A DNA stretch of 64,000 bases from the human T2T-CHM13v2.0 reference genome, Homo sapiens. Location: NCBI RefSeq assembly GCF_009914755.1, contig NC_060947.1, one strand, 5' to 3'. The translations under genes were made by a program, and so were the position numbers. Below the pieces are notes generated by a model. The model had not been told where the DNA came from. It saw only the letters and a program-made list of their open reading frames with translations, and made no database searches. The stretch's first letter is position 1. Each line of letters opens with the position of its first letter. Positions 2,131 to 51,845 of this stretch are shown in pieces.

Positions 2131-2211
2131 TACTAAACTTGTGTTGTTCAATATGGTGACTTCTAGCCACGTTGCTATTTAAATGTAAATTAATTTTAAT
2201 TTTAAAAAGCA

Positions 2212-2360
2212 CAGTATAAAATTTCTGCTTGGGGTGATGAAAAGTTTTGGAAATAGTGGTGGTCGTTGCACAACACCCTGAGTGTAATTAATGCCACTGA
2301 ATTGTACACTTAGAAATAGTTAAAATGGCAAATTTTATGTTCTATATATTTTGTAATTAA
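2212..2360 (+). mobile_element. L1MB-type 3' end fragment
   Basis: ttggggtgatgaaaagttttggaaat...aatgccactgaattgtacactta...ggcaaattttatgtt. Confidence 0.8.
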
Positions 2361-2397
2361 ACACAGAAAAGACAGAAGTTTAAATTAATTACAATTA

Positions 2398-2530
2398 CCT
2401 GGGGGCAGTGGCACGTGCCTTTAGTCCCAGCTACTTGGGAGACTGAGGTGGGAGGACTGATTGCCTGAGCCCAAGAGTTCAAGGCCAGCCTGGGCAACAG
2501 AGAGAGACCCTGTTTCTAAATAAATAAATA
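2398..2530 (+). mobile_element. FLAM (free left Alu monomer)
   Basis: Monomeric Alu with (taaa)n tail; 16-bp direct repeat taaattaattacaatt on both sides. Confidence 0.85.
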
Positions 2531-2719
2531 CTTAAATGTTTAAAAAGGAAAGAGATTTTAAAACATAAATTAATTACAATTTAAAATTCAGCTCCTCAGT
2601 CACACTAATTATATATGCGGTAGCTCAATGGATATCACATGGCTCCTGGCTGCTGTACTGGGCATGGAGATATGAAGTATTTCCATCATTGCAGATGATT
2701 CACTGTAGATGGTACCTAC

Positions 2720-2797
2720 CTGAAACCCTGGGTCTTGCTGGGATTGCTGGGGGGTATGTAATGAGAGGGCTGGGGCAACCCTGTGCAGAGATCTGAC
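2720..2797 (-). pseudogene. Candidate exon of the lost gene (GQISAQGCPSPLITYPPAIPARPRVS; alternative acceptor at 2780 gives GLPQPSHYIPPSNPSKTQGFR)
   Basis: Pyrimidine tract ctcctcttctgttgctctgctctcaaag|, strong donor CAG|gtaggt; both acceptors give an open frame with the phase-1 donor at 3374. Confidence 0.4.
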
Positions 2798-3373
2798 CTT
2801 TGAGAGCAGAGCAACAGAAGAGGAGCTAGCAACGGAAACCAGGGAGACAAATGCTGATGAAGCGACATACAACATGCTGAGGGAGCCCAGGAGACAGCAA
2901 CCAACCACATTTCAGAAAATATGCATGCCTTGCTGTTTCCCTCAAATAGTCCATGTTGTCCTGTCCCTGGGCCTTGCTTCATGGAGTGCCTTATCCTGGG
3001 AACCCTGCCATCATCATCCTTCCCATCCCTGTTCAGACGCTGCCCAGGATTTGAGGCCCCACACAGTCAGCTCCTCCCCATATGGCTATGAATCCAGAAT
3101 CTCCCAACCAGACGGAAACAGAACCAGGCACTGGCGGTTTTTCAGATTTATTAGGAAGACTTTTTACAGATTAAGACCTGCAGATGGGTTTGCACAGGGG
3201 AATCAGCTCTATACCCTGGTGTATATGTGGGACTCTGTCCAAATCTAGAAATGCCAGGCTTCTGAAACCCAGCAGACAGGACCTGCATGGTGCCTTGGGG
3301 ACAGTCAGGTGCCTTGGAGACAGCCCTATGGGCAATGGTGGAGAGAAGGAGGGCACGGCAAACTCGCACTTAC

Positions 3374-5614
3374 CGGGCAAGGCTGCACACACTGGCAGTG
3401 CTCTTCTAGCTACCTGTGGCTGGGGGTGCAAGGGAGCAGGGCTCAAGAGTGGCCCAGCTGCATTGCATGTAGGTGCATTCTGTGCCTGTGCTTGGAGCTC
3501 TGCTCTAGTGAGGCACTGACAGCAGCCCCACAGGGAAGTTTGTTGGGTTGTTTCTTAGCAGCACTATGGTGGGCATGGAGGCAGATTGGTCCTGCACATA
3601 GACCTCTGCTCCATTAAGACACAGCCTGTGCCCTGGTAGAGGCCCACTGAGCCCAGATTCAGCTCCTTGCTGAGATGGGCTCAAAGTAGACATGGGCTGA
3701 GCCTCCAGCTAGTGCTGTGCCTCAGGTGAAATCAGCCAGCAAACTCTTGCGTCATCTACTTCTGCTCCGCCAACCCAGGCTGTTTCCTTGAGTTGCTGTA
3801 CTCAGTCAATGTGTAGGTTCAGCCTGCATCTGGTCCTTGGATCAGGTGGAAGCAGCCAGCAACCCCTTGCAGCAACTCTTTCTGTTTCACTCACCAGACT
3901 GCAGTTCCATGAGGAGCTTCACTTGGTGTGGACACATGATGACTCTCTGCAAAGATCCCCAGTTAGGTGCAACCAGTTTTCTCCTGCAGTGGCTAGTTCT
4001 CCACTTCTCTGGGTGCTGGCTGTAGAGGCAGGCAACACTGGCAGGTAGAGCCCCAGTTCTTCAATAAACAGTTTGAATCTACTTGCAAAGCATTACTCCA
4101 TGCTGGTCCAGTGAGGCGCTCCACTCCATGTAGACACAGGCTGCGTATCCACTAGCAGTCCTGGCTCATCCCTGTACTGGCTGTAATTAGGCACAGAGGG
4201 CATTTCTGAGCTGATCCAGGTGGTGGTGCCTGCTGGAGCCATGCACACTGTAGATGTGGGCTGCATCTCCACAGGATAGTCTGATGCATTTCCACAGACA
4301 GGGGCTTGTCCTGTGTGGATACAGGTGGAAGTTCCTTGAGAAGCCTCATTTTGTGTGCAAGCTATGTGGTTCTGTGTAGACGCTGCCTGGTTATCTGCAG
4401 ATGCAAACTCAATCTCAGTAAACATAGCCTCCTTCTGTGCTTACACAGCCTTCTTGGTGACAGATAAAACCTCATCTTGGGTAGACACAGCCTCATTTTG
4501 GGCAGGTGCAGCTTCATCTTGGGAATGTCCCACCTTGTCCTGGGCAGCCATAGTTTGGTTCTGTGCAGACACAGCCTGTGATGACACACAGAGTTTTTGC
4601 TCATGTAGACACAGTTTATGGCCTGTTGCAGGGCAGCTGTTGACACAGCCAACATCCTCTTGTGGAGTCTGTGCTGTGTAGATGAGGCTTGAGCTTGCTT
4701 ACTGAACTGTGTTCTTTGTAGAGACAGTTTGTATCTGGGTATAAAGTCACCTCCTGTGTGGCCATGGCCTGCAGAAGCCTGCCGAGGCTCATCTTGTTTA
4801 GATGTTGTCTGCACCTTTCCACTGAGCCTCCTTGCACAGATATGCCTGCATTGCCTTATGAAATTTCACTTGGTCCTGACCTAGCCAGCACCACCATGCA
4901 GAGCTGTGCACCACATGGATCCATGGGGGGTCTTGAAGAGCCACATTCATGACTAATGCAACCTCTGCCTCCAGGGAACTGCCATCATTTTTCTGCAGAG
5001 CTGTGATCCACACAGTGGCAGTGTGCATCACTGGGAAGACCCACAGTCCTCATGTTGGTGCTGCCCGCATCTCCTGGCTGGGTGCTATCCTCCACTTTTA
5101 CCGTCTGCCTCTTGTGGCAGATCGGGGCTCTGTATGTGCAGTTGGCTTCTGCCTGCAGGGCTGGACTTGACAGACACAGCAAGCATCTCTTTGCAGTTTT
5201 GTCCTGTGGAAACACAGCCCTGTTTTCCTTGGGAAGTTTTGTCTTGCATGGATGTTGTCTGTATCTCTTTAGGGAGCCAGATTCCACGTAGATGCAGCCC
5301 ACATCCACTAGAAGAGCCTCATATCATGTAGATGCAGCCTTCATCCCCACATAGAGGCATCCCCACACATTCTTGTGGAGTGGAGCTACCTGTGGATCCA
5401 GATTGCCTCTGACCACCTGCCTTGTGTGCTGCCCCAGGTTACTCGGGTGGCCCAGTCCCTACAGCTATGGCTCCCCCACACCGTGCTGCTTTCTTTGCTG
5501 TGATATCTGCTCAGGCAGCAGTGATTTCAGCTCCGCCCTAGGACCCAAGTTCCTGCTTGGGGCCCCGGCCCCCTTGGAACCCCAGCTGGTGCCAGCACAG
5601 CCTGCCTCCATCTC
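3374..5614 (-). pseudogene. Decayed large coding-like exon encoding a Ser/Thr/Gln/Ala-rich repetitive protein (putative unitary pseudogene)
   Basis: Kozak caggagATGG at 5611; recurrent motif like (E/D/K)xQ(A/P/T)xST throughout; internal paralogous peptides (LLVDV.AASTWNLAP ~ LLVDTQPVSTWSGAP; QDKTSQGKQGCVSTGQ ~ QNEASQGTSTCIHTGQ); ends in CCG|gtaagt; many stops and frameshifts; no transposon recognised. Confidence 0.55.
4333..4584 (-). repeat. Degenerate 21-bp tandem repeat, 12 units (heptad Q-N/D-E-A-x-S-T)
   Basis: Units in register without indels: SSQAVSA QNQTMAA QDKVGHS QDEAAPA QNEAVST QDEVLSV TKKAV*A QKEAMFT EIEFASA DNQAAST QNHIACT QNEASQG. Confidence 0.85.
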
Positions 5615-5764
5615 CTGATGGAGCAGGAGGAACCCAGGTAGGTGGCGGGGTGGGGGTGGGATGGAACAACCAAGAGGAGACAGACTGGAGGAGAGCAAGC
5701 AAGCTGACAGGAGGGGCCAGCCAACCTCAGAAGCCAAACATGCAGGCTTTGGCTGAAGTGGGTG

Positions 5765-5772
5765 TATTTATA
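5765..5772 (-). promoter_or_regulatory. Candidate TATA box (TATAAATA)
   Basis: Consensus TATA in GC-rich surroundings about 155 bp upstream of the ATG at 5611. Confidence 0.35.
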
Positions 5773-6094
5773 CAAAGAGAAAGGAGGTGGAAAAAATCCA
5801 CTGCCACTCCCTGCTTGGCTCAAGCCCTGGTCTGGGTAAAGCCTGGAGAGTTTAATATGACTGACTCTGAGTCCCAGCCAGTCTACTTCCAGGACACAGT
5901 GAAGACAGCCCTGGAGAGTTGCTCCTGAGGAGATGACTCCCCCTATGCAGTGGCCCTGTCCAGGTCAGCTGGAGGCCATTGCTCCAAAGGAAGGCCTCCC
6001 CATGGGGCAGAGCAGGCACACATGAGTCCTCAGGGTTTCCAATGGGAAGAGACCTTAGAGGCAGTGCAGACTGCTGTGGTTGGCCTGGAGGCCG

Positions 6095-6200
6095 GGACAG
6101 AACCCAGAGCCCAGGTCCCACTCAGCCACTAATTCCCTGAATAACCTTGGGTAGGTCTCTCACCTCTCTGAGCCTAAGTTTCATCATCTTTTAATGACAA
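6095..6200 (+). mobile_element. MIR fragment
   Basis: accttgggtaggtctctcacctctctgagcctaagtttcatcatct. Confidence 0.65.
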
Positions 6201-7569
6201 GTACCATGACTGCTAAGATTTTTTGCTGCTCTCACTTTCCAGGATTGTTGGGGCTCTTTTGTTCCCCCAACCCCCTTTGCTTTACAGATGGGTGGCTGAG
6301 GCCCTGGGAAGTGGCAGGCTCTGGCTCACCCAATGTCCACAGTGGCACCTGAGCTAGAACCCAAACGCTCTTGCTCTAACACTAGGCCCTTTTCTCCTGG
6401 TCCTTTTCTAGAGAAGTCAGCAGTGTGGTGCTAGAAGATGGAGCCCAGCTTGCAGGAGGCCCAGAGAGCTGGCACTGGGGAGACCACACCTTCATGGATC
6501 TGTGATCCCTTCACTGCCAAATCCTCAGCCTGTCACACCAAGAAGATACTGGCCTTCTGGCAGATAAAGTGGAAGGTGAACTCAGAGCAGCCCTATCACA
6601 GTGGCCAGCTTCATCCCAGGCTCAGAATCCAAGAGCATCCTTCACTGGCTCCCTGGTCCTAGCCGCCAGCTCTGGGAGGAGTCAGGGCCCAAGTCACTGG
6701 GCCCAGGTCAAGGCAGAGGAGCTGAAGCCCAGAGAGGGAAAGAAAGTGAAGGGTGCAGGTTGGCAGCAACCTTGTGTGTTGAAACAGAATTCCTGGGGAG
6801 GGAAGCAAAACAACATTTTCCTACCTCCGTGGCTCCCTGAGGAACAGTGGCAGCCCAAAGATGGGACTCCTCCCTCTGTTCACATTAGCCAGCCCTCAGC
6901 ATACCATGATGCATCTGTGCAATTGCCATACTTATAAAGCATCTTTCTCATCAATGAACATGTGCCAGAAGGGATTTATTGCCCCCCTTTTTCTCTATCA
7001 GTCAGATATTTACTATCTCTGTCCTTGTGTGAAAATATTCTCAGAAGTGCCATGAGAACATTTCCTATTGTGAGATTGCCAAAGAACCAAGGCAAACATC
7101 ATACATCTTTCTTGGGAAAATGTCTCACGACCTTCACCAAATCCTGGGGGAAACTCACTGCAGTCTGACAGTCCTCAGATCCCTCCCAGTCCTAGACCTG
7201 GCTCCTGGCTCTCAAATAGGCTTAGGCTAATGGAGACCTGGATTCCAGTCTGAGCTTTGTCATACATTTGATATGTCACGTAATGCAGGTTCTTTGGACT
7301 CTCTGGGCCCCAGATTCTACAGAGGTGGCATGAAGAGGGTTTTACCTAGATGGGGGTGACTAGCCTATGCTCTGAGGATGAAGCAATTTTTGGTGACCTA
7401 GAAAGTTATAAAATATGCCAACATCCCAAACAAATCCCAGTATAGAGCAACTGCTAAATAGTGAGCAGAGAAGTATCATCTGGTAGATAATGTCAGTTTC
7501 AGCAACCTAACATTTTAGATTGATGATTCACTAACAATTACATTATTTTATAGTGAATTATTAATCAAA

Positions 7570-8310: not shown

Positions 8311-8482
8311 CAGTTTGGCCACCCCTGTCCTGAAATGAAAAACCTCTTAGGTTTTTCAAGAGACTTGTGTGCTTTGATTCAGAGATGGATAAGCTGAGTA
8401 AATGCAACAGAGAAACATGGCTCTAAGGTCCCTCCCACTCCACCAGCCAAGAGCCAAAGCTGCTTTCACCTGGACACACTTC

Positions 8483-11775
<3,293 letters not shown>

Positions 11776-44406: not shown

Positions 44407-44468
44407 CAGGCTCCCTCCCCACCCCCTGAATATTTCAGGCTCCCTCCCCACCCCCTGAATATTTCAGG
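44407..44468. repeat. Perfect 29-bp tandem duplication
   Basis: caggctccctccccaccccctgaatattt x2 + cagg. Confidence 0.95.
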
Positions 44469-48073: not shown

Positions 48074-48143
48074 TTAGGGATCTTTAATGACATTAGGGAT
48101 CTTTAATGACTTAGGGATCTTTAAAGACATTAAATGTCTTTAA
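48074..48143. repeat. 18-19 bp tandem triplication ending in an inverted repeat
   Basis: ttagggatctttaatgac(a) x3; ttaaagacat-taa-atgtctttaa. Confidence 0.9.
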
Positions 48144-48149
48144 TGAAGC

Positions 48150-51570: not shown

Positions 51571-51845
51571 CTCTCATTCATTCATTCACTCGCTCATACA
51601 CTTACTCATCCATACATTCGCTCATTCATTCTCACACACACACTCCTACACATTCACTCATTCGTTCATTCTCCACTCACACACTCACTCATTCATTCAT
51701 TCTCCATTCACTCACACAAACATACTCACACCCTCAGCCATTCACTCGCTCACACATTCATTCATCCCTTGACTCATACACACAGTCATTCACTCATCCA
51801 TTCACACACATGCTCACTCGCTCATTCACTCACTCACTCATTTCA
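51571..51845. repeat. Degenerate (TCAT/TCAC/CA)n low-complexity tract, probably an expanded L2 tail
   Basis: About 270 bp of tcattcactcacac variants followed by antisense L2 3' sequence. Confidence 0.85.

What the first reader, a model, noticed from the sequence alone, without database searches (positions are those of the whole stretch)
4333..4584. Cryptic 21-bp x12 heptad array with strictly preserved register
Seen: twelve units, heavily diverged in DNA but with no indel, translate on the minus strand to Q-[ND]-E-A-x-S-[TA]. There is one stop (TAA at 4443-4441), exactly at the Ser position (a single TCA>TAA change would explain it). Inference: high substitution with no indels in a codon-multiple unit points to former coding constraint, for example a coiled-coil-like rod or an O-glycosylated/phosphorylated spacer, rather than a neutral minisatellite.
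Basis: partly seen in the sequence, partly recalled or inferred. Interest (0 to 1): 0.7.

Follow-up and report, generated by a model that had tools for sequence, protein, structure and literature searches.

The report
Fossil of a lost X-linked gene
The twelve-unit repeat is real and lies inside a 2.2-kb stretch that is likely the decayed remnant of an unannotated protein-coding gene on the human X chromosome; a bat still carries a 404-codon open reading frame matching it, while the human copy is broken by many stops and is out of frame with the bat at several points.

Summary
The array is real: 12 gap-free 21-bp units, 50% mutually identical against 25% in shuffles. It is the best-kept part of a single-copy, repeat-built block (5611-3374, minus strand) bounded by TATA/ATG-like and splice/poly(A)-like signals. 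Twelve non-human homologous ORFs tile 5611-3737. One is a 404-aa horseshoe-bat gene model starting at the same ATG, which neutral decay rarely gives (at most 1 in 3000 simulations). The human TAA at 4443 faces Ser or Pro in 5 of 5 in-frame homologs. Verdict: likely an old unitary pseudogene of an orphan gene, the array a disordered acidic Ser/Thr-rich spacer. Function is inferred only.

The parts
4333..4584 (-). 12 x 21-bp array, best-kept part of the relic; reads as acidic, Ser/Thr-rich heptads [QE]-[ND]-[EQK]-[AVT]-[AVM]-S-[TA]
4441..4443 (-). TAA inside unit 7; Ser or Pro in homologs
3374..5611 (-). Predicted large coding exon, decayed; scattered unit-like heptads confined to it; highest TpG+CpA excess in the window
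5609..5611 (-). ATG in a good Kozak context, aligned with the first Met of the bat protein; an acceptor-like CAG ends 3 bases upstream
5765..5772 (-). TATA-like box about 160 bases upstream of the ATG (a common motif: 33 on this strand of the window)
4093..4095 (-). Second stop in the array frame; Gln in 3 distant homologs; an 88%-identical homolog ends at the same residue
3178..3373 (-). Predicted 196-base intron: consensus donor, branch-point-like motif and CAG acceptor
3147..3177 (-). Predicted tiny last exon: 8 codons, then a stop that overlaps AATAAA (3152-3147)

Best explanation
The array is the best-preserved part of a 2.2-kb single-copy block that is likely the relic of a protein-coding gene, inferred to have been alive in the common ancestor of bats and primates and lost early in the human lineage. 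Shown: the repeat, its homologs, the stops and frame shifts, and the signals at both ends. Inferred gene: TATA-like promoter, ATG at 5611, one long exon to 3374, a short intron, and a tiny last exon whose stop overlaps the poly(A) signal. Inferred origin: the exon grew by repeated duplication of a CpG-rich unit of about 21 bp; the 12 units diverged from each other while in-frame selection removed indels, and later methylation-driven decay and nonsense changes accumulated neutrally. Inferred protein (weakest step, about 0.3 on its own): a largely disordered germ-cell protein with an Arg-rich front half (seen in the bat), an acidic Ser/Thr-rich heptad spacer carrying S/T-Q phosphorylation motifs, and a short Cys-rich tail; the spacer would act as a flexible, phosphorylation-tunable linker, not a coiled coil. 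Today the human array likely encodes nothing.
For: Bat model mRhiFer1_007824 (404 aa) aligns over 394 residues at 54% from the same ATG without an intron-sized gap; all 9 human stops on that path face sense residues. In neutral simulations a stop-free run of 404 codons arose in 0, 0, 1 and 0 of 3000 runs under four settings, and never from the first codon. Unit-like heptads: 8 in 4585-5614 and 5 in 3374-4332 against shuffle means 0.86 and 0.77 (0 of 150 shuffles reached either), 0 upstream and 0 in the intron and downstream. A donor-branch-acceptor-AATAAA arrangement occurs once in both strands of the window, at the end of this block (the pattern was written after I had seen the site). Between units, codon position 2 is best kept (mismatch 0.55/0.38/0.58; P about 0.01) and BLOSUM similarity exceeds neutral simulation in this frame (z 3.2). 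Only 2 stops in 258 codons of the array frame from 4698 to 3924, against 4 and 13 in the other frames. TpG+CpA o/e 1.67 vs window mean 1.29, sd 0.09. Single copy in T2T. S/T-Q: 6 in the human array, 8 in the bat protein.
Against: No protein-level constraint between species: identity 58% in the array frame vs 57% in other frames, implied divergence 0.25-0.36 substitutions per site, bat mismatch BLOSUM z -0.8. Upstream of the array the bat reads only 2 of 8 strong (8 of 20 weaker) unit-like hits in the unit frame, which is chance level, so frame offsets between units predate the bat-human split. Human stops on the bat path (9 in 394) are not clearly fewer than in fixed frames (10-12 in 397). No full-length (about 750 aa) ortholog was found; the bat protein itself ends inside the array. 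Codon bias falls to P 0.075 when ex-CpG columns mutate faster; the mirror antisense frame scores similarly (z 2.9). No expression data were available. No coding gene is listed between HSFX4 and MAMLD1 for human, cat or mouse, and only one pig LOC overlapping CXorf40B.
Confidence: 0.6

Rival explanations
1. An old non-coding repeat block (decayed CpG-rich minisatellite, possibly the exon of a non-coding transcript), or a gene already dead before the bat-primate split; the open frames in other mammals are chance survivors picked by gene callers.
For: Neutral-like divergence in all frames; bat reads outlying units out of frame; 8 of 12 homologous ORFs shift frame against human; runs of 178-241 codons arise in 0.3-13% of neutral simulations; codon bias partly explained by CpG decay; a 12-unit in-register core is ascertained for its register.
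Against: A 404-codon frame from the same ATG is rare under neutrality; the repeat block begins at the ATG and ends at the splice and poly(A)-like signals; zero indels across the whole between-unit divergence is unlikely (about 5e-4 under an assumed rate of 1 indel per 14 substitutions, before ascertainment).
Confidence: 0.27
2. One reading: a coiled-coil rod gene lost recently through the single TAA.
For: The TAA faces Ser or Pro in 5 of 5 in-frame homologs; AlphaFold draws one long helix over the repeat of a homolog; weak tropomyosin scores, E 0.26-1.1.
Against: 7 stops in this frame and several shifts; a second stop apparently shared with an 88%-identical homolog; almost no Leu/Ile, net charge -7 to -12, period 7 stronger than 3.5; model pLDDT 49.7, pTM 0.23.
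Confidence: 0.06
3. The repeat formed a beta-solenoid like the grass ice-binding protein, which also has 7-residue repeats.
For: 3 homologs score PF21300 at E 3e-4 to 5e-3 and the profile finds 3ULT at E 0.19.
Against: All scores (17-21 bits) are under the 30-bit cutoff; in the 3ULT alignment its second Asn and its Gly face charged residues and Thr/Ala; the AlphaFold model has no strands.
Confidence: 0.04
4. Internal repeat of an unrecognised ancient mobile element.
For: Intergenic, TATA and poly(A)-like signals, many such elements decay similarly (general knowledge).
Against: Single copy by DNA and by five protein queries; not masked in NCBI's file (hub note); no Pfam family in any of six read-through frames.
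Confidence: 0.03

Closest known systems
Unitary pseudogenes (GENCODE class; e.g. the 44 added by Mudge et al. 2019, PMC6886504)
   Same: Single-copy locus, disabled by stops and shifts, with a homologous open frame in another mammal.
   Different: No verified functional ortholog; no mouse, cat or pig gene listed in the interval; homologs are mostly broken too; the only X-linked row found in that paper's Data S3 is the profilin-5 locus at 64.4 Mb.
Hypothetical protein mRhiFer1_007824, Rhinolophus ferrumequinum
   Same: 54% identical over 394 residues, same start Met, same array units 1-8.
   Different: Open for 404 codons; ends inside the array; a gene model of unknown support (the annotation pipeline mixes ab initio and transcript evidence, PMC8075899 passages); synteny not checked.
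Spermatid genes with a TATA box and one short intron near the 3' end (protamine and transition-protein genes; recalled, not checked by a call)
   Same: Predicted two-exon layout with a tiny last exon; Arg-rich segments and Cys-rich tail.
   Different: No sequence similarity found; predicted product about 750 aa with an acidic repeat; expression untested.
S/T-Q cluster domains (ATM/ATR substrates; PMC3564818)
   Same: At least 3 S/T-Q within 50 residues in the human array frame, the bat protein and P0002.
   Different: Motif arises at unit junctions, is not kept at fixed positions across homologs, and the loose definition is met by 2,193 human proteins.
Grass ice-binding beta-roll (PF21300, PDB 3ULT)
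   Same: 7-residue period, rich in Asn, Ser, Thr, Val.
   Different: Below cutoff; Asn ladder and Gly turn not kept; no beta structure predicted.

Membership tests
Unitary pseudogene | No functional paralog in the same genome | tested here: met
   Only the locus itself scores in T2T by DNA and by protein queries; other matches E 0.28 or worse, apart from a chimeric N-terminus of P0003
Unitary pseudogene | Disabling changes in the human copy | tested here: met
   9 stops and 7 frame shifts against the bat protein over 394 residues; which lineage each shift arose in is mostly unresolved
Unitary pseudogene | An intact, functional ortholog in another species | tested here: inconclusive
   One 404-aa bat gene model that ends inside the array; no full-length protein found
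Unitary pseudogene | Synteny of the ortholog | not testable with these tools
   No mammalian genomes other than human are held; the bat record lies on a 126-Mb contig
Coiled coil | Hydrophobic residues at heptad a and d (period 3.5) | tested here: not met
   0-3 Leu+Ile per 82-84 residues; amplitude at period 7 (1.07-1.32) exceeds period 3.5 (0.62-0.68)
Coiled coil | Confidently helical | tested here: inconclusive
   One helix, pLDDT 53-70, shallow alignment of 8
Grass antifreeze beta-roll PF21300 | Score above the 30-bit family cutoff | tested here: not met
   17.3-21.3 bits
Grass antifreeze beta-roll PF21300 | Inward Asn and turn Gly in each heptad | tested here: not met
   Alignment to 3ULT; 1-2 Gly per array
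S/T-Q cluster domain | At least 3 S/T-Q within 50 residues | tested here: met
   P0001 positions 40, 59, 73 and 108, 115, 120; P0002 88, 100, 110; P0018 124, 164 and 350, 376 give pairs only, so the bat meets only the 100-residue rule
S/T-Q cluster domain | Phosphorylation by ATM/ATR | not testable with these tools
   Needs an expressed ortholog
Neutral minisatellite | No codon-phase bias and indels of any length | tested here: inconclusive
   Bias P 0.009-0.075 by model; 3 of 11 homologs with non-triplet shifts in the array

The most novel reading that the evidence does not exclude
An undescribed X-linked orphan gene of placental mammals, built from a 21-bp repeat and unrelated to any known family, that is still expressed and functional in some bats or other laurasiatherians (possibly in a shortened form) and was lost independently in primates and several other lineages.
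Probability: 0.25. Interest if true: 0.62.

Novelty: new member of a known kind. Interest (0 to 1): 0.4.

Why it matters
If right, the human X holds an unannotated fossil of a gene with no known relatives, found from its repeat alone. It would add a gene loss that screens based on mouse or human orthologs cannot see, give a case of a gene built by internal 21-bp duplication and then remodelled by frame shifts, and point to an uncharacterised bat gene worth testing in testis. It has no evident function in humans now, which limits the interest.

Tried and rejected
Pfam: no family for 12 window ORFs apart from one E 0.66 hit, none for six read-through frames, none for the bat protein. Rfam: 0 matches in the window. 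PDB by sequence: nothing under E 0.19. ESM Atlas with P0002 and P0018: no usable relative; its own models have pLDDT 0.41 and 0.36; the human read-through peptide was not examined there. Search for longer homologs with the human peptide alone: none among 1019 candidates. Homodimer prediction of the repeat: no answer, not counted either way. Fold search not run because the model was low-confidence. Dropped from the 15 hits: P0013 and P0014 (unrelated low-complexity proteins), P0003 and P0007 (human-identical chimeras; the P0003 N-terminus maps to chromosome 7, so it is not splice evidence); P0017 is the human ORF. Weak genomic matches L003-L024 were checked and none is a convincing paralog. My GU-rich downstream-element filter found no site in the window, including this one, so that signal is not claimed. 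Literature: searches gave no description of this locus; Mudge 2019 Data S6 is held cut (2,131 rows) and my search term there rested on a recalled hg38 position; one supplement of PMC8327908 could not be searched. Earlier scan findings were not available.

Full report
Observation. Autocorrelation peaks at lags 21, 42 and 63. Twelve gap-free units average 0.496 pairwise identity against 0.251 (sd 0.011) in 2000 shuffles, and the site is the strongest 12x21 signal in the window. Each of the 12 units scores best in register when left out of the profile. The minus-strand translation and the TAA at 4443-4441 are as described.

The array is part of something larger. A profile of the unit finds 8 further strong matches in 4585-5614 and 5 in 3374-4332, where dinucleotide shuffles give under 1; it finds none upstream (5615-6800) and none in 2200-3373. 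The same interval has the highest TpG+CpA excess of the window (1.67 vs 1.29, sd 0.09), the mark of a formerly CpG-rich stretch (inference). Its 5' end has an ATG in good context at 5611 with a TATA-like box at 5772 and an acceptor-like CAG just before the ATG; TATA plus ATG is common (13 per strand) and counts little alone. Its 3' end has a consensus donor after 3374, a branch-like motif, an acceptor before 3177, 8 codons, and a stop overlapping AATAAA; my pattern for this arrangement matched once in both strands of the window, but I wrote it after seeing the site. The block is single-copy in T2T.

Homologs. An exhaustive search with the read-through peptide gave 15 hits; I dropped two unrelated low-complexity proteins and two human-identical chimeras, leaving 11. 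A profile search for longer proteins added a named one, Rhinolophus ferrumequinum hypothetical protein mRhiFer1_007824, 404 aa. The other 11 carry no species name; that they are mammalian is inferred from similarity. A frameshift-aware alignment places these 12 along 5611-3737 at 42-62% identity, one at 88%. The bat protein begins at the same Met, aligns over 394 residues without an intron-sized gap, and ends in unit 8 of the array; on its path the human copy has 9 stops, each opposite a sense residue, and 7 frame shifts. At the TAA in the array the five in-frame homologs have Ser (1) or Pro (4). Eight of 12 homologs shift frame against human somewhere; of 11 overlapping the array, 6 align without gap or shift, 3 have non-triplet shifts, and 2 have only in-frame gaps, one of them a whole unit. 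These counts are lower bounds, since a library protein shows only one open frame.

Was it coding? For: neutral evolution of the human block produced a stop-free run of 404 codons in at most 1 of 3000 runs and never from the first codon. Between units, codon position 2 is best conserved (P about 0.01), column 8 is invariant while column 7 takes three states, and residue exchanges are more conservative than neutral in this frame (z 3.2; pN/pS 0.69 vs 0.86, P 0.045). Against: the bias drops to P 0.075 with faster ex-CpG columns and is P 0.12 on majority residues; human-homolog identity is the same in and out of the proposed frame and the bat shows no excess of conservative changes; upstream of the array the bat reads only 2 of 8 strong unit-like hits in the unit frame; no full-length ortholog turned up. 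The picture that fits all of this is old constraint acting while the units diverged, frame remodelling before the bat-primate split, and mostly neutral or very fast evolution since. A gene already dead before that split, or never coding, is not excluded.

Timing in humans. The array frame holds 7 stops between 4698 and 3374. An 88%-identical homolog, probably from a monkey (inference), ends at the same residue as the human frame before the stop at 4095, which suggests that the loss is older than apes.

What the repeat did. Not a canonical coiled coil: 0-3 Leu+Ile in 82-84 residues, net charge -7 to -12, hydrophobic period 7 rather than 3.5; AlphaFold gives one low-confidence helix, pTM 0.23. 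The weak match to the grass antifreeze beta-roll is below cutoff and lacks its Asn and Gly pattern. The composition fits a disordered acidic spacer; S/T-Q motifs form at unit junctions and meet the cluster definition of PMC3564818 (passages read), which is a loose one. The bat protein's residues 101-300 hold 33 Arg. X linkage, former CpG richness, a TATA box and one short 3' intron recall spermatid genes (my recollection, no call), so I commit to a germ-cell, largely disordered protein with a phosphorylatable spacer, at about 0.3.

What is known. RefSeq lists no gene here (hub note). Supplemental Table S4 of PMC8327908 (passages and part 10 of the table read) lists nothing between HSFX4 and MAMLD1 for human, cat or mouse, and one pig LOC overlapping CXorf40B. 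Mudge et al. 2019 (PMC6886504; passages, a search of Data S3 and a cut Data S6) shows one X-linked unitary pseudogene, elsewhere. The bat annotation mixes ab initio, homology and transcript evidence (PMC8075899, passages), so the model's support is unknown, and its identifier appears in no searched paper. Other papers were seen only as search listings. GENCODE annotation of the interval could not be checked.

Verdict. Real feature; likely an old unitary pseudogene of an orphan X-linked gene (0.6), rival non-coding or long-dead block (0.27). A new member of a known kind, interest 0.4; higher if the bat gene proves to be expressed and constrained.

Noticed in passing
window 3722-3775 and 3842-3895: Two 54-base copies, 74% identical, 120 bases apart (a multiple of three) inside the predicted exon: a larger in-frame internal duplication.
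   Followed up: no
window 5274-5306 and 5314-5346: Two 33-base copies 40 bases apart; the bat protein aligns across both without a gap, so this out-of-frame duplication predates the bat-human split.
   Followed up: partly
window 4367-4389 and 4556-4578: 87% identical stretches 189 bases (9 units) apart, hinting at a higher-order duplication within the array.
   Followed up: no
window 4365-4865, minus strand: The +1 frame is open for 167 codons and reads as basic Lys/Arg/Leu heptads; two homologs (P0008, P0010) were called in this frame.
   Followed up: partly
window 8472-11660: Masked 3.2-kb repeat with a poly(A) tail and an ORF resembling the end of LINE-1 ORF2 (name recalled), inserted about 2.7 kb upstream of the TATA-like box.
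   Followed up: no
window 51573-51840: Unmasked degenerate TCA/CA-rich simple repeat of about 270 bases.
   Followed up: no
window 44407-44468 and 48074-48146: Short tandem duplications: a perfect 29-base unit x2.1 and a 19-base unit x3.2.
   Followed up: no
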